A stretch of DNA of 64,000 nucleotides from the human T2T-CHM13v2.0 reference genome, Homo sapiens: NCBI RefSeq assembly GCF_009914755.1, contig NC_060943.1. One strand, given 5' to 3'. The notes below the pieces were generated by a model. The model saw only the letters and a list, made by a program, of their open reading frames with translations. It was not told the DNA's origin and ran no database searches. Each line of letters opens with the position of its first letter. Position 1 is the first letter of the stretch. Positions 17,766 to 53,192 of this stretch are shown here, in pieces. The translations under genes and the position numbers were made by a program.

Positions 17766-19416
<1,651 letters not shown>

Positions 19417-19464: not shown

Positions 19465-19888
<424 letters not shown>

Positions 19889-37790: not shown

Positions 37791-38674
37791 AAATAATTTA
37801 TAGAGCAGAGGCATGAGCAATGGGATGATGGCAGCCTGGGCCATGGTGCAGGCAGTGGGGGAGGCATGTGGCACTGGATTTGGGATCTATCTGGGAGGTG
37901 GCATCAACTAGACTTGCTGGTGGACTCGATGTTGAGGGGGAGAGAGTGTCCACCATGGCTCCTGGATTTTGGCTTGAGCAACTGAGTGGATTCTGGTGCC
38001 ATTTTCTGAAGTTGGGAATTTGGGGAAGATTCCAGAAGTCCAGGTGGTGCTGGTGGATGTACAAGTTGGGGTTCTGGAGAGATGTCCAGATGGAACAAGA
38101 AATTAGGGAAGCCCGAGCCATGGACATACATTCACTGGGCACATATGTGGATGCCAGGGCCTGTTCTGGGCACTAAGGATGGTGCTAAGCATCTGAGAAT
38201 GCCCTGCCCTTCCAGAGATGGCACCGCATGGCTTGTCAGGTGCCCGGATGGTAGGTGTGCCAGGCACTCAGGCTGCGTTGGGAAAGGAGTACTTAGTGAG
38301 AAGGGACAGGAGCTGTTGGACCACGAGTGACCACTCCTGAAGGCTGTGCTACTGGAGAGACTGGGGGGCAGTGGCAGGGCGCAGCTTGGGCAGAGGCGTG
38401 AAGGCAGGATTCCGGAATTCGAGGCAGTCACAGCAGGATCGCTTCGCAGGCCAGGCTCGGGGACTCAGTGCTGGGGATGCCTTGGGTTTTAGGCAGGCAC
38501 CCAAGCCCCTGCCTTTGGGGCCTCTTTTCGGAGGCGAGAGTTTCCCATACCCCCAGCCCTCTCCCATCCCAACCCTTGTCTTTTTGTCCTGAGTGACCCT
38601 AAATTGGTTTCTGCTCCAGAGCATGGGCCTGCCCTGCTGACTTTTGACCTTGGATGGGGCGGGTCTTGTTGCAG

Positions 38675-38740
38675 CTTGACAGTGATGACCTCCTGGATAA
38701 TCCCGGGGAGGCCCAAAGTGCCTTCTATGAAGGTCCTGGG
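38675..38740 (+). CDS. BICRA: BICRA exon 5, LDSDDLLDNPGEAQSAFYEGPG
   Basis: ttgcAG acceptor, GGG|gtaagt donor; 66 nt, phase 0; peptide visible in ORF 38654..38848. Confidence 0.95.
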
Positions 38741-40624
38741 GTAAGTGCCGTGGCTCCCGATCATTGCCTGAGCTGTTGGGGCTGCCAGCGGGAGGAGGGC
38801 CCTGAAGCCAAGAGGGGAGGCTTGGGCTCATCTCGTGAGGGCTGTTGACAGGAGGAGGGCGGGGGTGGGCCACCCAGGGTGGCTGGACCACCCTGGCAGT
38901 GCAGGAGGGAGCAGAGCTGGGGAACCCTGTGGGGGGCCAACATGGACAAGGCTGACTGTGCCTTGCAGACCCCTTGGGGAAGAGGTGAGGGTCCCCGAGG
39001 CCTTGGGGCCCTGGGGTGGCTCATGCAGAGTGGTTCTGGGGAGCTGAAGCGGATGTGGGTTGTGGGGTTCACAGGGGCACTCCTGGAGAGCAGAGGGCTG
39101 GGGGAGGCCTGGGGTCCTGCCCAACTCAGCCATGGCAGGGTGTGACCTAGGGGAGGGGCCTCCTCACCTGCAGACTTCAGTCTTCACCTGGGCAGTGAAT
39201 ATGGGTGCTGAGAAAAGCCCAGAGTGGCCAATGCAGAGGATGTTTATTGAGCACCTACTGTGTGCCTGACTATGCCGGTCCCATGACTAAGTGCCAGTTG
39301 TCCACACCACGGTGGCCACCTCCTTCCTCCTTCTCCCTCTTCTGTTGCTGCTTTCCCCCCTTCACCTTTTCCTCCCCCCACCTTCCTTCGGCCTCCCCCC
39401 TCCCCGCCTCCCCTTCCTCCTTCCCCCCCTCACCCTCCCCGCCTTCCCTCTTCATCATCAGAACACGCATTCACCAAACACTTATTATACGACCAGCCCT
39501 TCCTTGTTATCTTCATTTAGTTCTCACAGCTATAATATCATATTCCAAATAGCTTATCTTTCATAATATAAATGATGAGGAAATGTAGTAATTATATAAT
39601 GTTGGTCTATTTACAGGCCCAGTAACAGTGGTGATCCTGTTACTATTTTGTGATCACACTTCTTACCACGACCATCATTTTTGTATACCCTAAGATCCCC
39701 ATTCAGGTTCTAAACACTCTCCACACGTGACATCAGTGAATTTTCACAGGCATCCCAGGAGGCAGGTTGGTTGTGACCATCTGGCAGTTAAGAGCTCAGG
39801 GGGTTACAGTGGCCTGCCTGGTCCTCAGTCGGTTGGAGGCTGAGCCAGAGCCCTGTCTGCCTGCCACTCCCCGCCACTCACCAGTGGTTGACCCAGGCAG
39901 TTCCCTCGTCTGTGAAATGAGGAAGGGAGCAGCACCCGCCTCATGGGACTGTCACCAACAACAGCATGGAGAATCACAATAATAATGAGTGATGATGATA
40001 GATGCTTCTCGAGCACCTGCCAGGGGCCGGGTGATACCGTGAACCCTCCATGTGGATTTACTGAGAATCCTGGAAGCTGCAGATTTTGATGGGTTATCTG
40101 GTCAGTATTGGTGGAGATGGAAATCTGTATCATAAGTATTGTTTGTGGGGCTTTCCACACATATGCCTGCAGATATTTTTCCATGCGTGTCCTGGGTTGC
40201 AGTCCAGGATAGCATGAAAAGCACTTAAAAAGCATTGAGGCTGGGCACGGTGGCTCACGCCTGTAATCCCAGCACTTTGGGAGGCCGAGGTGGGCGGATC
40301 ACCTGAGGTCGGGAGTTCGAGACCAGCCTGACCAACATGGAGAAACCCTGTCTCTACCAAAAATACAAAATTAGCCGGGCATGGTGGCACACGCCTGTAA
40401 TCCCGGCTGCTTGGGAGGCTAAGGCAGGAGAATTGCTTGAACTCGTGGGCGGAGATTGTGGTGAGCCAGGATCACACCATTGCACTCCAGCCTGGGCAAC
40501 AAGAGTGGAAACTCCGTCTCAAAAAAAACCCAAAGAAACAAAAAGCATTGAACTCACAGTGCGGTTGGCACAGAAGTTCACAAATGGGAGCCACTGCTGA
40601 TGTGAGCTTTACTCCACCAGAACT

Positions 40625-40900
40625 ACGACTGCTTGTCAGAAACCTTTAGGGCCAGGTGTGTTTCAGAATTTCGAATTTCTCCAATTCTGGAAAAGTGGTG
40701 CCATATGTGTGGTGTGTGTCATGTCACACGCTTGCCTTTCGGCGGCCAAACTTGGGATGTCACATCATGTGGATAAATGGATCCCACCTAAAGTGCCATG
40801 TTGGTTCTGGTCAGGTTTTGCTGCCAACAGAGCTATGAAAACAGTCTCAGTTCTTAGAGCTTTTTGGGTTTTGTAATTACAGATAAGTGTTGTGGGCCTA
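40625..40900 (+). mobile_element. Old Tigger-type (MER46C-like) element; a related copy lies at about 63065-63680
   Basis: gggccaggtgtgtttcagaattt...ggtcaggttttgctgccaa...gataagtgttgtgggcct; resembles recalled consensus and the second copy. Confidence 0.5.
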
Positions 40901-40913
40901 TATCACTATTTAA

Positions 40914-41234
<321 letters not shown>

Positions 41235-41253
41235 TAGACTTTATTTTTGTTTT

Positions 41254-41414
41254 TTGGGCGTCAGCTGGTAGAGATTGGGGGACAGCACCCCCGCGGGCTT
41301 GGGCTGGATGGGCATGGGCGTGCGATGCAGGATCACGTTGGGCGCCGGGACCAGTGGTGACAAGCTGAGGCCTGGGGCCACCACCAGCGGCTTTCCTGAG
41401 GGTGCCCCGCTGGG
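41254..41414 (-). pseudogene. Inverted partial duplicate of BICRA exon 6 (copy of 42940-43100)
   Basis: Manual alignment gives 161 bp, 14 mismatches, no gaps. ORF 41241..41429(-) translates to [54 protein letters not shown]. Confidence 0.95.
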
Positions 41415-42144
41415 TCTTACTCTTGTCACTTAGGCTGGAGTACAGTGACACAATCATAGCTCACCGTAGCCTGGAACTCCTGGGCTTAAGAGATCCTCTC
41501 ACCTCAGGCTCCCAAAGTGCTAAGATTACAGGCGTGAGTCACTGTGGCCTTGAACAGTAGTTTTTTTTATTACATTTTACTGATGGGTACAGATGAAGAA
41601 ACTGAGGTCAGATCAAGCACGCCCTAGGTTACACAGCTAAGCCTTGGCAGAGCTGGGATTTGATCCCGGGTCCAGCCACTTGCAGGTGGAATGTTCTTTT
41701 TTCTTTTTTTTTTCTTTTTTTCTTCTTTTTTTTTTTTTCTTCTCAAAGTCTTGCCCTGTCACCGAGGCTGGAGTGTAGTGAAGTGCTCGTAGCTCCACTC
41801 TGCAGCCTCAAACTCCTGGGCTCCAGTGATCCTCTCACCTCAGCCTCCCAAGTAGCTAAGACCACAGGCACATGCTGCCACCCCTGACTAATTTTTCTTT
41901 TTTAAAATTTTTTTCTCACTGCGTTGCCCAGGCTGGTCTCAAACTCTTTGGCTCAAGCCATCCATCCTCCTACCTCAGCCTCCCAAAGTGCTGAGATTAC
42001 AAGCGTGAACCACCATGCCAGGAGGGAATGTTCTTTCTTGAACGTGGCTGCCCTGTCACCTCAGCATTCTTTGCGGCAGCTGTGGCCTAAGCGTAGCCCC
42101 TTGCTAACCTCAGCTCTTTCCTTCCCACCTTTCCCGGCCTGCAG

Positions 42145-44100
42145 CTCCATGTGCAAGAAGCTTCCGGCAACCACCTGAACCCAGAGCCCAACCAGCCGGC
42201 CCCCAGTGTGGACCTAGACTTCCTGGAAGATGACATCCTGGGCTCTCCTGCGACAGGGGGCGGCGGCGGGGGCAGTGGGGGCGCTGACCAGCCCTGTGAC
42301 ATCCTCCAGCAGAGCCTCCAAGAGGCCAACATCACGGAGCAGACGCTGGAGGCCGAGGCTGAGCTGGACCTGGGTCCCTTCCAGCTGCCCACCCTGCAGC
42401 CTGCGGATGGCGGGGCAGGCCCGACGGGCGCTGGAGGGGCAGCGGCCGTGGCTGCGGGGCCCCAAGCCCTCTTCCCAGGCAGCACCGACCTGCTGGGGCT
42501 GCAGGGCCCGCCTACCGTGCTGACCCACCAGGCCCTGGTGCCGCCCCAGGACGTGGTCAACAAGGCCCTGAGTGTGCAGCCCTTCCTGCAGCCTGTGGGC
42601 CTGGGCAATGTGACACTGCAGCCCATCCCGGGCCTCCAAGGCCTGCCCAATGGCAGCCCTGGGGGTGCCACGGCGGCCACACTGGGCCTGGCGCCCATCC
42701 AGGTGGTGGGCCAGCCCGTCATGGCGCTCAACACGCCCACCTCCCAGCTCCTGGCCAAGCAGGTGCCCGTCAGCGGCTACCTGGCCTCGGCGGCTGGCCC
42801 CTCGGAGCCCGTGACGCTGGCGTCGGCCGGTGTCTCGCCACAGGGGGCTGGCCTGGTCATCCAGAAGAACCTCTCGGCCGCTGTGGCCACCACGCTCAAT
42901 GGGAACTCTGTGTTCGGAGGCGCGGGGGCCGCCTCGGCTCCCACCGGGACGCCCTCGGGACAGCCGCTGGCGGTGGCCCCAGGCCTCGGCTCGTCGCCAC
43001 TGGTCCCGGCGCCCAACGTGATCCTGCATCGCACACCCACGCCCATCCAGCCCAAGCCCGCGGGGGTGCTGCCGCCCAAGCTCTACCAGCTGACGCCCAA
43101 GCCGTTTGCGCCCGCGGGCGCCACGCTCACCATCCAGGGCGAGCCGGGGGCGCTCCCGCAGCAGCCCAAGGCCCCGCAGAACCTGACGTTCATGGCGGCG
43201 GGGAAGGCGGGCCAGAACGTGGTGCTGTCGGGCTTCCCCGCGCCTGCGCTGCAAGCGAACGTCTTCAAGCAGCCACCGGCCACCACCACCGGAGCGGCCC
43301 CGCCGCAGCCCCCCGGGGCCCTGAGCAAACCCATGAGCGTCCACCTCCTGAACCAAGGCAGCAGCATCGTCATCCCCGCCCAGCACATGCTGCCGGGCCA
43401 GAACCAGTTCCTACTGCCTGGCGCCCCGGCGGTCCAGCTCCCGCAGCAGCTCTCAGCCCTGCCGGCCAACGTGGGCGGGCAGATCCTGGCGGCCGCTGCC
43501 CCCCACACAGGTGGACAGCTCATCGCGAACCCCATCCTCACAAACCAGAACCTGGCGGGCCCACTGAGCCTGGGCCCCGTGTTGGCCCCCCACTCCGGGG
43601 CCCACAGCGCGCACATCCTCTCCGCCGCTCCCATCCAGGTGGGCCAGCCTGCGCTCTTCCAGATGCCCGTGTCGCTGGCGGCGGGCAGCCTGCCCACGCA
43701 GAGCCAGCCAGCGCCCGCCGGGCCGGCCGCCACCACTGTCCTCCAGGGGGTCACCCTGCCCCCCAGCGCCGTGGCCATGCTCAACACCCCCGACGGCCTG
43801 GTGCAGCCGGCCACCCCTGCCGCTGCCACCGGGGAGGCCGCGCCTGTCCTCACGGTGCAGCCTGCCCCCCAGGCGCCCCCCGCGGTCAGCACACCCCTGC
43901 CCCTGGGCCTCCAGCAGCCGCAGGCGCAGCAGCCCCCGCAGGCCCCCACCCCACAGGCCGCCGCCCCGCCTCAGGCCACCACCCCCCAGCCCAGCCCTGG
44001 CCTGGCGTCTAGCCCGGAGAAGATCGTCCTGGGGCAGCCGCCCTCTGCCACCCCCACGGCCATCCTCACTCAGGACTCCCTGCAGATGTTCCTGCCCCAG
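42145..44100 (+). CDS. BICRA: BICRA exon 6 (1956 nt; Pro/Ala/Gly/Gln-rich low-complexity region, residues ~51-702)
   Basis: ctgcAG acceptor, CAG|gtaagc donor; matches ORF 42151..44268 up to ...LQMFLPQ; high GC3 and CpG content. Confidence 0.97.
42240..44060. other. Intragenic CpG-rich region coincident with exon 6
   Basis: Visibly very high GC and CpG density compared with the flanking introns (not computed). Confidence 0.6.
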
Positions 44101-44799
44101 GTAAGCAGGGCGGGGCAAGGGAGCAGGTACCGGAGGAGGCGGGTTTGGGAGGAAGAGGGGTCCTGGGGCGAGGCGCCAAGATCCAAAAGTGGATGCCACT
44201 GTGGCAGCTGGGGGGGGAAGGTCTCAGTCATGGCACAGGTGGCCCCTAAGAGGAGGCCCGAAGGGTGAGGGCCCTGGCTGAACTGGCAGGAAGATGGATT
44301 GGCAGGTTGGCTGACTGATAGACAAGGGGCAGGACAACTGTTAGGCAGTGAGAGGGACTGGCAGACAGACAGACAAAGAGAGGGACCAGTGAACAGACAG
44401 AAGGGTAGGCACTGGCTGGGCTGCTGACAGATGGAGAGGAGAGGGACCGGCAGGGAGAGGGACTACCCGACGGACAGAGAAGGGCAGGCACTGGCTGGCC
44501 TGCTGACAGACAAGGAGAGGAATCTCAGAGAGAAAGTGGACGAGACAGGGACAGAGGGACAGGCAGGTGGGGCAGGAGAGAGGCAGGGCAACGTGGAGCT
44601 GGCAGAGGGGCCAATGGGAGCTCAGAATGGAGCAGGCTGCCTGGGTTTCGGCCTCTGTGCCTGGCACCCTGCCTGCCAGGCTGCCCACTACCCCATTCTC
44701 TGGAACCCTGGGAGCGTCAATAGGGGCAGGGGTCTCGGGTGGGGAGGTCGAGGGCCTGTGGGGGCGGCTTTCTGATCCTGTGCGGGCTGCCCGTTGCAG

Positions 44800-44976
44800 G
44801 AGAGGAGCCAGCAGCCCCTCTCCGCAGAGGGCCCCCACCTCTCCGTGCCTGCCTCGGTCATAGTCAGCGCCCCGCCTCCCGCCCAAGACCCAGCCCCAGC
44901 CACCCCCGTCGCCAAAGGAGCTGGCCTCGGCCCTCAGGCCCCCGACAGCCAGGCTTCCCCGGCTCCGGCCCCCCAG
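44800..44976 (+). CDS. BICRA: BICRA exon 7, ERSQQPLS...SPAPAPQ
   Basis: ttgcAG acceptor, CAG|gtagag donor; 177 nt, phase 0; ORF 44794..45084. Confidence 0.93.
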
Positions 44977-45463
44977 GTAGAGGGACCCCAGCAGCCTGTG
45001 TCCGCAGCACAGACCCAGCCTCGCCCCTCCTGCCCGCTCTCCCGCTCCTCGCTCTCCGCCCTGCCTGCGTCTCTGTTCTGCTGACTTGGAACACAGAGCT
45101 CTCCTTCACCCCCCAAGTGTCTCCTAGTGATCATGGATGCCTGAGACCAGGGCCGGCCCTGGGGGAGCCCACGCGCTGCAGGAATGCAAGACACACACGG
45201 AAGGAAATCTGTTCTTTCCTAAAATTATAATTTTCAAATCTGAATAAGTAATACATTCAGATAATTCACATTTCAAACGGTACAAAAAGATGCATAGTGG
45301 AAAGCCCCCGTCTCCTGAACCGTGGCCTCCTGTTGTCCTCCCAAGGTGGTTTCTTGCATTTGTTATCTGGATAGGGAAACAGAATCAAATAGATTCTTTT
45401 CCTTCAATTTTTACAAAAAGGGTAGCATCTTCTGCCTGCGGTATTGCATCTTTTATTATTTAA

Positions 45464-50205: not shown

Positions 50206-52844
50206 CTTTCTTTTGATGTCTTTATTGTGTTTTGTGATATGGACATACCATTATTTCTTTATTCAGTCCCCTCTTGAGGAATACTTCAGGTGGTTTATTT
50301 GTCATTGTTAACAAACAAAACTCCTATAAGATATTCTTGACTGAGCGTGTTGGCTCACACCTGTAGTCTCAGCACTTTGGGAGGCCGAGGCGGGCAATCA
50401 CCTGAGGTCAGGAGTGTGAGACCAGCCTGGCCAACATGGGGAAACCCCATCTCTACTAAAAATACAAAAATGAGCCAGGCGTGATGGTGGGCACCTGTAA
50501 TCCCAGCTATGCTACTTGGGAGGCTGAGGCAGGGGAATCCCTTGAACCTGGGAGGCGGAGATTGTAGTGAGCCTAGAGAGGGTTGCAGTGAGCTGAGATC
50601 GTGCCACTACACTCTAGCCTAGGCAGCAGAGTGAGACTCTGCCTCAAAAAAAAAAAAAAAAACTTGCACCCATGCTTTGCACACAGGTATGAAAGTACTT
50701 GTAGGGTAAATTTCTAGAAATAGAATTGCCAGACGTAGATGATAAGCTTTCCAGCCATTTTGTGGAAAGTGCTAAACCTTTTTGAAAAGGTTCATGCCAG
50801 TGATGGCTTCACTTGGTCCTGCAGCTTTACTGACACACGAGATTAGCAGCTGGCCTGTTCTTTGCCAGGCTGGAAAGTGACACACCCCCTGTGCTTTTCT
50901 CTAATTGTGTGTGAAGTTGAGCATCTTGCCGCCTCCACGTGGGGCTCTCGAAATCTCTTGGAAGCTGGGCGTGGTGGCTCATGCCTGTAGTCCCAGCTAC
51001 TCAGGAGGGAGGCTGAGGCAGGAGGATCACCTGAGCCCAGGAGTTTGAGGTCAGCCTGAACAACATAGCGAGATCTCATTTCTGAAGAAAGAAAGAAATG
51101 GAAGGAAGAGAAGGAGGGAATCTCTTGGTGAACAATCCACTCATATGTTAGTTTTTTTGCTTTGGGAAGCTAAGATGGGGGATCACTTGAGGCTAGCAGT
51201 TGAAGACCAAATAATAATAATAATTTTGTGCTCATTTAGAGAATGTAGAAAATACAGAAAAGAACAAAGAAGAAAAATAAGTCACATGTAATACCACTGT
51301 GTGCAAGCAGTTGGTAAAAAAAAATTTTTTCTGGCCAGGCACAGTGGCTCATGCCTGTAATCCCAACATTTTGGGAAGCCGAGTTGGGTGGATCACGAGG
51401 TCAAGATATCGAGACCATCCTGGCCAACATGGTGAAACCCCGTCTCTACTAAAAATACAAAAATTAGCTGGGCATGGTGGTGTGTGCCTGTAATCCCAGC
51501 TACTCAGGAGGCTGAGGCAGGAGAATTGCTTGAACCCGGGAGGCGGAGGTTGCAGCAAGCGAGCTGAGATTGAGCCACTGCATTCCAGCCTGGGTGACAG
51601 AGCGAGACTCCGTCTCAAAAAAAAAAAATTTTTTTTTCTTTGTTTTGTTTTATTTTTTGTTTTTGAGACAGAGTCTCTCTCTCTCTCTCGCCCGGGCTGG
51701 AGTGCAGTGGCGCGATCTCGGCTCACGGCAACCTCTGTCTCTGGGATTGGAGCAATTCTTCTGCCTCAGCCTCCCAAGTAACTTGGATTTACAGGCACAT
51801 GCCAGCAAGCCCGGCTAATTTTTGTATTTTTAGAGAGACGAGGTTTCACCATGTTGGCCAGGCTGGTCTTGGACTCCTGACCTCAAGTGATCCACCCGCC
51901 TTGGCATCCCAAAGTGCTGGGATTACAGGTGTGAGCCACTATGCCAGGCCTAGCTTTGTTTTTTCTAAGACAAATATTGTAGAAGAAGTAATATTTTGGT
52001 ATGAAGTTTCTGTTTAACCCCCCGACCCCAATTTTATTTAAAACATTTTTTAAATAAGTCATTTTATTCACATAGTATGATCATCAGAAAGTTTTTTTTT
52101 CTTTTTTTCCAGAGACAGGGTCTTGCTCTGTTGCCCAGGCTGGTCTTGAACTCCTGGGCTCAAGCAGTCCTCCTGCCTTGGCCTCCGAGAGTGCTGGGAT
52201 TACAGGCATGAGCCACTGAGCCTGGCCTAATTTATTTTTATTTATTTTTTCTGAGACTGAGTCTCTCTCTGTCGCCCAGGCTGGAGTGCAGTGGCAAGAT
52301 CTTGGCTCACTGCAAGCTACGCCTGCTGGGTTCAAGCAGTTCTCCCTGCCTCAGCCTCCGGAGTAGCTGGGATTACAGGTGCACACCATCCCGCCCTGCT
52401 AATTTCTGTATTTTTAGTAGAGACAGGGTTTCGCCATGTTGGCCAGGCTGGTCTTGAACTCCTGACCTCAGGTGATCCGCCTGCCTGGCCTCCCAAAGTA
52501 CTGGGATTATTATAGGCGTGAGCCACCACGCCTGGCCACCTGGCCTAATTTTTGTATCCCTTTCCAGTTCTTCGTGTATATACAACCTAGTGCAAATATG
52601 GTTTACGTTTCTCTCCCATTTGTACCCAAAGGGGAGCTCATTATGTACTTACTGTGGCAGCAACAGTGAGTTTGCTTGTTTTCTGTTAGAGTCTTGAAGT
52701 ATTCCTTTGTACAGAAGAGCCACAGTTCATTTCCCCAGGAAATGCCATATTGATGCACTTTAGACCATATCCAGATTTTGGCGTTCTACACGAAGCTGCA
52801 GGAAACAACTTGTTCACCTGTTTTGTTTTTGTTTTTGTTTTTGA

Positions 52845-53192
<348 letters not shown>

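What the first reader, a model, noticed from the sequence alone, without database searches (positions are those of the whole stretch)
41254..43100. Possible self-derived editing-complementary sequence: intron 5/exon 6 fold-back duplex enclosing the exon-6 acceptor
Seen: both arms are on the same pre-mRNA, 1525 nt apart. 147 of 161 positions are Watson-Crick and 4 more become G.U wobbles in a very GC-rich stem; the loop contains the exon-6 3' splice site (42144). Established: intronic ECSs pairing with exons direct ADAR recoding (GRIA2 Q/R is the model), A.C mismatches favour editing, and long stems can modulate splicing. Exonic A.C mismatches fall at 42949 (ACG Thr319 -> GCG Ala if edited, but with an unfavourable 5' G neighbour near the stem end) and 43035 (synonymous); other exonic As in the IQPK and LYQLTPK codons are also in the stem. 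Inference: a lineage-specific dsRNA element, built by gene self-copying rather than Alu-Alu pairing, that might recode or regulate splicing of a chromatin regulator. There is no direct evidence here that it forms or functions.
Basis: inference. Interest (0 to 1): 0.75.

Follow-up and report, generated by a model that had tools for sequence, protein, structure and literature searches.

The report
Inverted exon-6 copy in BICRA intron
A 161-base piece of BICRA exon 6 was long ago copied backwards into an Alu in the preceding intron, so the unspliced RNA could fold into a long double strand, but it looks like a decaying repair scar and not a proven RNA-editing device.

Summary
Arms 41254-41414 and 42940-43100 are 161 nt, with 147 Watson-Crick pairs, 4 G.U and 10 mismatches. 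The exon-6 acceptor (AG at 42143-42144) lies in the 1525-nt loop. The human assembly holds only these two copies, so the element is self-derived.

In silico the duplex is very stable: cofold -353 kcal/mol against -154 +/- 5.5 for shuffles, and it survives in the full 1951-nt fold.

The intronic copy sits exactly between the body and the A-rich tail of an old minus-strand Alu. It replaces the last 6-8 bases of that Alu, has 2-3 nt of microhomology at both junctions and has no target-site duplication of its own. It is much less diverged (8.7%) than the host Alu (about 24%). I read it as a primate-specific templated insertion, from a break-repair patch or a replication template switch.

Its 14 differences look like neutral CpG decay, and 4 preserve pairing while 4 break it.

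The GTEx recoding catalogue I could search lists no BICRA site, although its control genes are found. No paper found mentions editing of exon 6.

The most likely reading is a neutral relic that acts at most as a weak, promiscuous ADAR substrate in nascent RNA. A real recoding or splicing role is not excluded (about 10-15%).

The parts
41254..41414 (-). Inverted copy of BICRA exon 6 codons 317-369. It reads as sense BICRA on the minus strand and forms the intronic arm of the potential duplex on the pre-mRNA.
   Evidence: 91% identity, E = 1.2e-57. The 14 differences are listed.
42940..43100 (+). Source segment in exon 6, which is the exonic arm. It has 24 adenosines; 22 face U and 2 face C (42949, 43035).
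   Evidence: The translation begins PTGTPSGQPL and ends LYQLTPK. The whole exon 6 translation matches no Pfam family.
41415..41549 (-). Old, internally deleted Alu (Alu#2) that hosts the insertion. Its body breaks off 6-8 nt before the usual end.
   Evidence: the 5' half aligns to positions 3-64 of the window's Alu consensus (82% identity) and the 3' half to positions 212-268 (74%); alignment of its 3' end with 33 window Alus. BLAST hit.
41239..41253 (-). A-rich stretch, read as the displaced tail of Alu#2. On the + strand it is the T-run that abuts the insert.
   Evidence: sequence read on the minus strand.
40958..41238 (-). Full-length Alu (Alu#1) inserted next to that tail.
   Evidence: 87.8% identical to the window consensus, 3 of 20 CpG kept.
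40238..40518 (+). Sense-strand Alu facing Alu#1. Together they form a conventional inverted Alu pair just upstream of the intronic arm.
   Evidence: Cofold -451 kcal/mol.
41550..41562 (-). Candidate 5' target-site duplication of Alu#2 (13 nt).
   Evidence: 11 of 13 bases match 40910-40922. This was reached by 81 of 3000 shuffles and 60 of 3000 random real pairs.
40910..40922 (-). Candidate 3' target-site duplication of Alu#2, now beyond Alu#1.
42143..42144 (+). Intron 5 acceptor AG, inside the 1525-nt loop.
   Evidence: and the annotation supplied with the finding (exon 6 starts at 42145).

Best explanation
A 158-161-nt stretch of BICRA exon 6 was copied in inverted orientation into intron 5, 1.5 kb upstream of its source. 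It landed precisely at the junction between the body and the A-rich tail of a much older antisense Alu. The event was a one-off templated insertion. Either a cDNA patch made from the local BICRA transcript sealed a break (class-2 templated-insertion type), or replication switched template to the nearby opposite strand. The two routes cannot be told apart because the piece lies within one exon. The insertion happened in primates, roughly in the AluS-to-AluY era as inferred from divergence, and the copy has since decayed neutrally. As a by-product, unspliced BICRA RNA can fold the intronic copy onto exon 6 as a 161-bp, GC-rich duplex. I infer that this duplex forms in some nascent transcripts before intron 5 is removed and is deaminated weakly and promiscuously by ADAR, as the many inverted Alu pairs of the same gene are. 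I infer no appreciable recoding of mature mRNA and no selected function. Shown: the anatomy, the copy number, the thermodynamics, the substitution pattern and the absence from one recoding catalogue. Inferred: the insertion mechanism, the age, duplex formation in vivo and low-level editing.
For: Only two copies exist in the genome. The insert lies between the Alu#2 body and its tail. In an alignment of 3' ends with 33 window Alus, Alu#2 stops 6-8 nt short of the usual end and BICRA sequence follows. The insert has no direct repeat of its own at its edges, and there are 2-3 nt of shared bases at both junctions. These are the features given for class-2 templated insertions: no TSD, microdeletion and microhomology (PMC5110952, sections 5 and 9 read). 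The ages differ. The fragment is 8.7% diverged from its source. Alu#2 is 76% identical to the window's Alu consensus, and Alu#1 is 87.8% identical. The decay pattern looks neutral. Of the 14 differences, 7 are CpG transitions in the copy, 1 is a CpG transversion and 6 are non-CpG (6 of 127 sites, 4.7%). The copy keeps 9 of 17 CpG. Four of the transitions leave G.U wobbles and four give A.C mismatches, so there is no bias towards keeping pairs. The duplex is feasible: cofold -353 kcal/mol against -153.8 +/- 5.5 for 30 shuffles, 145 in-register pairs in the MFE of 41200-43150, and a loss of 267 kcal/mol when the intronic arm is held single-stranded. There is no recoding signal: the supplement of PMC8897444 holds GRIA2 52 times, BLCAP 229 times and chr19 1589 times, but BICRA and GLTSCR1 0 times.
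Against: The duplex is longer, better paired and more stable than the median edited non-repetitive dsRNA in the dsRNAscan preprint (144 bp, 87.5% paired, -185 kcal/mol; PMC11838218, passages and Table 1 seen). Editing could therefore be substantial in tissues or RNA fractions that the GTEx poly(A) catalogue does not sample. The copy keeps 53% of its CpGs. Only 4 of 48 window Alus keep that many, which could mean youth, but could also mean constraint or gene conversion with the exon. No orthologous primate sequence could be examined, so neutrality rests on one pairwise comparison of 14 differences. REDIportal, nascent RNA-seq and duplex-mapping data could not be consulted.
Confidence: 0.6

Rival explanations
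1. It is a functional, primate-specific editing-complementary sequence. The intronic copy pairs with exon 6 before splicing. It then directs ADAR to recode BICRA residues in the 317-369 region, or slows or modulates use of the intron-5 acceptor held in the loop.
For: The duplex is very stable in silico and dominates the full-length fold. It has 38 uninterrupted Watson-Crick pairs, or 42 counting one G.U. A conventional inverted Alu pair lies directly upstream and could help recruit ADAR. Several exonic adenosines have acceptable neighbours, for example 43085 (UAC, Tyr364 to Cys) and 43055 and 43079 (AAG, Lys to Arg). CpG retention in the copy is high compared with most window Alus.
Against: No BICRA or GLTSCR1 site appears in the GTEx recoding catalogue although its controls are found. 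Four full-text searches found no report of exon-6 editing, only a 3'UTR site. The substitutions show no preference for keeping pairs, 4 wobble against 4 A.C. A long near-perfect duplex is expected to give promiscuous editing, not site-selective editing (established knowledge of ADAR, recalled). Most exonic adenosines have a 5' C or G. The region matches no Pfam domain.
Confidence: 0.12
2. The origin was a single L1-mediated chimeric retrotransposition. Alu#2, the BICRA fragment and the A-rich tail would have entered together by template switching of the L1 reverse transcriptase, bracketed by one target-site duplication.
For: On the minus strand the order is Alu body, BICRA sense fragment, A-rich tail. 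A 13-nt direct repeat with 11 of 13 matching bases brackets the whole block; it starts directly at the Alu 5' end and lies in an A-rich target. Class-1 insertions of non-L1 RNA made by L1 ORF2 are described in PMC5110952.
Against: The parts differ at least twofold in divergence: Alu#2 is 76% identical to the consensus, while the fragment is 91% identical to its source. Alu#2 keeps 1 of 12 CpG and the fragment keeps 9 of 17. The fragment is internal to the mRNA and ends at no A-rich or polyadenylation site. The repeat is explained as well by Alu#2's own earlier insertion. Its statistical support is modest: it was reached by 81 of 3000 shuffles.
Confidence: 0.1
3. The copy is inert at the RNA level. 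The duplex essentially never forms in cells, because intron 5 is spliced, or the arms are occupied by local folds and proteins, before the exonic arm 800-950 nt past the acceptor is available. No editing occurs at all.
For: Each arm folds stably on its own, at -71.9 and -59.0 kcal/mol. The exonic arm is made only after the acceptor and about 800 nt of exon have been transcribed. No BICRA coding site is catalogued.
Against: Pairing gains more than 220 kcal/mol over the two separate folds. Intronic inverted Alus with loops of about 2 kb are routinely edited: the median loop of edited dsRNAs is 2025 nt in PMC11838218, Table 1. A distance of 1.5 kb is therefore no obstacle in principle.
Confidence: 0.15

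Closest known systems
GRIA2 Q/R-type intronic editing-complementary sequence (site-selective ADAR recoding)
   Same: An intronic sequence is complementary to part of a coding exon of the same pre-mRNA, so pairing must precede splicing. An exonic A sits opposite C.
   Different: No editing has been shown here. The stem is 161 bp and near-perfect, which suggests promiscuous editing, whereas classic substrates are short, imperfect and conserved. The complement lies upstream of the exon and is 1.5 kb away. It arose by copying the exon itself and lies inside a primate Alu, so it is not conserved across mammals. The properties of GRIA2 are recalled, not tested here.
Inverted Alu pairs in introns (promiscuous ADAR substrates)
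   Same: It is a long intramolecular duplex with a loop of 1-3 kb in pre-mRNA. The same window holds 71 inverted pairs of at least 100 nt within 4 kb, one of them directly upstream.
   Different: Neither arm is Alu, because no Alu or SRP-like hit falls inside the arms. One arm is coding. It is the most complementary of the 25 longest pairs listed (91%) and is far richer in GC (74%).
Class-2 templated sequence insertions (Onozawa and Aplan, PMC5110952)
   Same: The donor is intact and one extra copy exists. The source is transcribed. There is no target-site duplication or poly(A) of its own, and the junctions show microhomology and a small deletion.
   Different: The donor is not distant: it lies 1.5 kb away in the same gene and in inverted orientation, which fits a replication template switch equally well. 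The insertion is old and presumably fixed, not a polymorphism. It also abuts a pre-existing A-rich tail.
Non-repetitive predicted dsRNAs of the human genome (dsRNAscan preprint, PMC11838218)
   Same: It is an intramolecular duplex with neither arm in an annotated repeat, within a protein-coding gene. Its metrics exceed the medians of the 4,597 edited non-repetitive dsRNAs.
   Different: BICRA is not named in the main text.

Membership tests
ADAR editing-complementary sequence (recoding substrate) | Intramolecular duplex between the exon and an intronic complement on the same pre-mRNA | tested here: met
   In silico only. There are 147 Watson-Crick and 4 G.U pairs out of 161. Cofold is -353 kcal/mol, and the duplex is kept in the 1951-nt MFE.
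ADAR editing-complementary sequence (recoding substrate) | Documented A-to-I editing of the paired exon in mRNA | tested here: not met
   BICRA and GLTSCR1 occur 0 times in the supplement of PMC8897444, where GRIA2 (52), BLCAP (229) and chr19 (1589) are found. Four literature searches show only a 3'UTR site. Caveats: this is one catalogue of poly(A) RNA, stored files may be cut, and REDIportal was not available.
ADAR editing-complementary sequence (recoding substrate) | Editing of either arm in nascent or total RNA, and dependence on ADAR | not testable with these tools
   No RNA-seq or editing database was at hand.
ADAR editing-complementary sequence (recoding substrate) | Pairing conserved beyond the neutral expectation | tested here: inconclusive
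   The transitions split 4 G.U against 4 A.C, and 7 of the 14 differences are CpG decay, so there is no sign of constraint. CpG retention of 9 of 17 is high relative to 44 of 48 window Alus. No orthologues were available.
Class-2 templated sequence insertion (break-repair patch) | Donor intact, with one extra copy elsewhere | tested here: met
   exactly two places in the assembly.
Class-2 templated sequence insertion (break-repair patch) | No target-site duplication, and microhomology or microdeletion at the junctions | tested here: met
   The two edges of the insert share no repeat. CCC and AA are shared at the junctions, and 6-8 nt of the Alu end are missing.
Class-2 templated sequence insertion (break-repair patch) | No poly(A) tract of its own | tested here: inconclusive
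   The insert abuts a 15-nt A-rich stretch. I assign this to the older Alu#2, but it could in principle belong to the insert.
Class-2 templated sequence insertion (break-repair patch) | Templated from RNA (reverse transcribed) | not testable with these tools
   The fragment lies within a single exon, so no splice junction can tell RNA from DNA as the template.
L1-mediated chimeric retrocopy (class-1 type) | All parts of one age, bracketed by one target-site duplication, with a poly(A) tail | tested here: not met
   A candidate TSD exists, 11 of 13 bases. The parts differ in divergence, 24% against 8.7%, and in CpG retention, 1 of 12 against 9 of 17.
Inverted Alu pair | Both arms are Alu elements | tested here: not met
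   No Alu BLAST hit or SRP-like Rfam hit lies within 41254-41414 or 42940-43100.

The most novel reading that the evidence does not exclude
A primate lineage built an editing-complementary sequence in one step by pasting an inverted piece of a coding exon into the upstream intron. In cells or stages with high ADAR activity or slow splicing of intron 5, this duplex would drive multi-site recoding of the proline-rich 317-369 segment of BICRA (for example Tyr364Cys, Lys354Arg, Lys362Arg, Asn341Ser). Alternatively it would gate use of the exon-6 acceptor, giving a primate-specific layer of control over a dosage-sensitive chromatin-remodelling subunit.
Probability: 0.1. Interest if true: 0.7.

Novelty: new member of a known kind. 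Interest (0 to 1): 0.35.

Why it matters
If the duplex were edited, it would be a clean natural example of an editing-complementary sequence created in a single mutational step from the target exon itself. That would bear on how new recoding sites arise and on the design of self-targeting ADAR guides. As it stands, the finding matters in three smaller ways. First, it is a well-resolved fossil of a templated insertion of a gene's own exon sequence into its own intron. Second, it is a practical warning: unspliced reads from the copy can be mis-mapped onto exon 6 and would mimic A-to-G editing at 42949 and 43035, the two sites first flagged. Third, it is a ready test case for whether long exon-intron duplexes form before splicing.

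Tried and rejected
Chance was rejected: E = 1.2e-57, and there are only two copies genome-wide.

A third copy or a paralogue as the source was rejected, because all of exon 6 has no other match in the assembly.

A known structured RNA in the arms was rejected. An Rfam scan of 38600-45000 at E up to 1 gave 11 sub-threshold hits: ten Alu-type (SRP-like, mir-1268, mir-3135) in the flanking Alus and one very weak CrcZ hit (E = 0.63) in the loop at 41597-41738. None lies in either arm.

A protein domain in exon 6 was not found: 0 Pfam families for the 652-aa translation.

The single-event Alu-BICRA chimeric retrocopy was considered and put second because the ages differ.

My first target-site-duplication test was set up wrongly. 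The upstream flank was cut 4 nt short, which gave 10 of 13 matches, reached by 714 of 2000 shuffles. The test was redone with the correct flank.

The supplements of PMC11208617 and PMC5844249 gave 0 occurrences even for the control gene GRIA2, so they say nothing about BICRA.

A search for papers on editing-complementary sequences that arose by exon duplication turned up nothing relevant in its listing.

Orthologous primate or mouse sequence, REDIportal and RNA-seq could not be reached with these tools. The two A/G differences could therefore not be polarised, and the age is only a rough estimate.
Full report
**Observation**

The repeat finder reports one long inverted pair in 40800-43600. Its arms are 41254-41414 and 42940-43100, 161 nt each, 91% complementary, with 1525 nt between them. 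Counting base by base gives 147 Watson-Crick pairs, 4 G.U and 10 mismatches. Complementarity stops abruptly at all four ends.

The exonic adenosines that face C are 42949 and 43035. With exon 6 starting in frame at 42145, 42949 is the first base of codon 319 (ACG, Thr, which would read Ala if edited) and has a 5' G. Position 43035 is the third base of codon 347 (ACA, synonymous if edited). The acceptor AG is at 42143-42144.

The pair is not a chance match. A search of the whole assembly with the exon arm finds exactly two places, the exon at 100% and the intronic copy at 91% with E = 1.2e-57. The complete 1956-nt exon 6 has no further copy. The element is self-derived.

**Can it fold?**

- The two arms cofold at -353.1 kcal/mol, against -153.8 +/- 5.5 for 30 shuffles of the intronic arm (best shuffle -165.9).
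- The arms alone fold at -71.9 and -59.0 kcal/mol.
- In the minimum-free-energy fold of the whole stretch 41200-43150 (1951 nt), 147 pairs join the two arms and 145 of them are in register.
- Forbidding the intronic arm to pair costs 267 kcal/mol.
- The longest uninterrupted Watson-Crick run is 38 bp, or 42 bp counting one G.U.

For scale, the dsRNAscan preprint gives medians for its 4,597 edited non-repetitive human dsRNAs: 144 bp, 87.5% paired, -184.8 kcal/mol and a 509-nt loop. The median loop of all edited dsRNAs there is 2025 nt (PMC11838218, passages and Table 1 seen). On paper this is a better substrate than most. None of this shows that the duplex forms in cells.

**Where the copy sits**

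Read on the minus strand, the order is as follows:

1. A 13-nt stretch, 41562-41550.
2. An Alu (Alu#2, 41549-41415) that starts with a normal Alu 5' end.
3. The BICRA fragment in sense orientation (41414-41254).
4. A 15-nt A-rich stretch (41253-41239).
5. A full-length Alu (Alu#1, about 41238-40958) with its own long A-rich tail.
6. After two bases, a 13-nt stretch (40922-40910) that matches the first one at 11 of 13 positions.

That match is reached by 81 of 3000 composition-preserving shuffles and by 60 of 3000 random pairs of real 40-mers from the window. The support is modest. A first version of this test was mis-set, as described.

The Alu nature of the flanks rests on three results:
- BLAST with Alu#1 gave 113 hits in the window, 48 of them at least 240 nt long.
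- There are sub-threshold Rfam matches to metazoan SRP RNA at 40240-40496 (+), 40956-41238 (-) and 41745-41888 (-).
- Alu#2 aligns to a consensus of the window's Alus. Its 5' half matches consensus positions 3-64 at 82% and its 3' half matches positions 212-268 at 74%, so it is an internally deleted or monomer-like old Alu.

I aligned the 3' end of Alu#2 with the 3' ends of 33 window Alus. It follows them up to ...GAC, and then BICRA sequence continues where the others have 6-8 more bases and the A-run. The fragment therefore lies exactly between an Alu body and its tail and replaces the last few bases of the body.

The two edges of the insert share no direct repeat. Two to three bases are shared between donor and target at each junction: CCC at the Alu side and AA at the tail side.

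**Order and age of events**

| Element | Identity to source or consensus | CpG kept | Non-CpG divergence |
|---|---|---|---|
| BICRA fragment | 91.3% (14 of 161 differ) | 9 of 17 | 4.7% (6 of 127) |
| Alu#2 | 76% | 1 of 12 | about 30% (109 sites) |
| Alu#3 (41747-42019) | 77% | 1 of 20 | 19.9% |
| Alu#1 | 87.8% | 3 of 20 | 6.5% |
| Sense Alu 40238-40518 | 89% | 9 of 20 | 9.2% |

Only 4 of 48 window Alus keep at least 53% of their CpGs. The fragment is therefore clearly younger than the Alu it interrupts. This argues against one chimeric retrotransposition that brought in Alu#2 and the fragment together. It fits a later insertion into a pre-existing Alu whose own target-site duplication is the 13-mer pair.

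Because Alus are confined to primates (established knowledge), the insertion is primate-specific. From the divergence I estimate an age of some tens of millions of years, roughly the AluS-to-AluY era. This is a rough inference from six non-CpG differences, with no orthologues available.

**Mechanism of origin (inferred)**

The features are those listed for class-2 templated sequence insertions: an intact donor, an extra copy, a transcribed source, no target-site duplication, a small deletion and junctional microhomology. That paper attributes such insertions to the patching of double-strand breaks with reverse-transcribed RNA. It also states that template switching by DNA polymerases remains possible (PMC5110952, abstract and sections 5 and 9 read).

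On the + strand the insert follows directly on the T-run that is the complement of the Alu tail, and it reads as the complement of BICRA RNA from 43100 back to 42940. That is the product expected if the T-run primed reverse transcription on the local transcript. The donor is only 1.5 kb away and inverted, which is also what a replication template switch to the opposite strand would give. The piece lies within one exon, so no splice junction decides between RNA and DNA as template. I leave this at about even odds.

**Signs of selection or function**

The 14 differences are as follows:
- 7 CpG transitions in the copy.
- 1 CpG transversion.
- 6 non-CpG changes. One of them (43035) looks like CpG decay in the exon at a synonymous site.

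In RNA terms, four transitions leave G.U wobbles and four give intronic A opposite exonic C. This is the even split expected when CpGs decay on either strand, with no preference for keeping pairs.

Of the 24 exonic adenosines in the arm, 22 face U. Most have a 5' C (14) or G (4). The better contexts are 43085 (UAC, Tyr364Cys) and 43016, 43055, 43079 and 43100 (5' A). The exon 6 translation matches no Pfam family, and the segment is proline-rich.

**Published evidence on editing**

Full-text searches for BICRA or GLTSCR1 together with 'RNA editing', 'A-to-I' or 'ADAR' returned 6, 2, 12 and 8 papers. In two of them I read the passages that name BICRA; the rest I saw only as search listings (titles and abstract starts), none of which concerns editing of the gene. 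The only editing of this gene that I saw mentioned is a 3'UTR site (PMC10172764, passages seen). The other paper read concerns an lncRNA near BICRAL (PMC11103575).

The supplement of the GTEx recoding survey (PMC8897444) contains GRIA2 52 times, BLCAP 229 times and chr19 1589 times, but BICRA and GLTSCR1 not at all. That pipeline also removes mismatches that equal differences to similar genomic loci (passage seen). This would remove 42949 and 43035 but not the other 22 adenosines.

This is evidence against appreciable recoding in steady-state poly(A) RNA. It says nothing about nascent RNA or the intronic arm. Two other supplements returned nothing even for GRIA2 and are uninformative.

**Context**

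The window holds 71 inverted pairs of at least 100 nt within 4 kb. Among the 25 longest listed, this pair is the most complementary and the only one with a coding arm. I did not check one by one that the others are Alu pairs.

A sense Alu (40238-40518) faces Alu#1 directly upstream of the intronic arm, and the two cofold at -451 kcal/mol. The BICRA pre-mRNA is thus already full of ordinary ADAR substrates. This element differs only in that one strand is exon.

**Verdict**

The reading of a self-copied, lineage-specific potential dsRNA is supported. The reading of a working editing-complementary sequence or splicing regulator has no positive evidence and has one negative result.

My best explanation (confidence 0.6) is a primate-specific templated insertion that is decaying neutrally and is at most a weak, promiscuous ADAR substrate in unspliced RNA. 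A real recoding or splicing role keeps about 0.1-0.15.

One caution applies to any follow-up. The copy carries G where the exon has A at exactly 42949 and 43035, so mis-mapped intron reads would imitate editing at the two sites first proposed.

Noticed in passing
42949 and 43035 (partners 41405 and 41319): The only two exonic A.C mismatches are the two places where the intronic copy has G for the exon's A. Unspliced-intron reads mis-mapped to exon 6, especially in unstranded libraries, would look like A-to-G editing there. At 43035 the copy reads CG where the exon reads CA, which suggests CpG decay in the exon at a synonymous site after the copying.
   Followed up: partly
41688-41699 and 42025-42036, flanking 41697-42019: Alu#3 (minus strand, 77% identical to the window consensus) with its T-run is bracketed by a perfect 12-nt direct repeat, which is its own target-site duplication. 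The unique DNA it split (about 41551-41690) resembles an older MIR-type SINE. That resemblance is recalled, not tested.
   Followed up: partly
40238-40518 (+) and 40958-41238 (-): A conventional inverted Alu pair with a spacer of about 440 nt lies directly upstream of the intronic arm and cofolds at -451 kcal/mol. It is a likely ordinary ADAR substrate that could raise local ADAR occupancy.
   Followed up: partly
whole window: There are 71 inverted-repeat pairs of at least 100 nt within 4 kb, so the BICRA pre-mRNA has many potential long duplexes. Several reach 85-90% complementarity, for example 18513-18690 with 19687-19864 and 51397-51563 with 52893-53059.
   Followed up: no
41054-41105 (-), 41839-41890 (-), 40372-40423 (+), 41427-41486 (+): There are sub-threshold Rfam matches to the mir-1268 and mir-3135 precursor families inside Alu elements. 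These are Alu-derived models, and all scores are far below the gathering thresholds.
   Followed up: no
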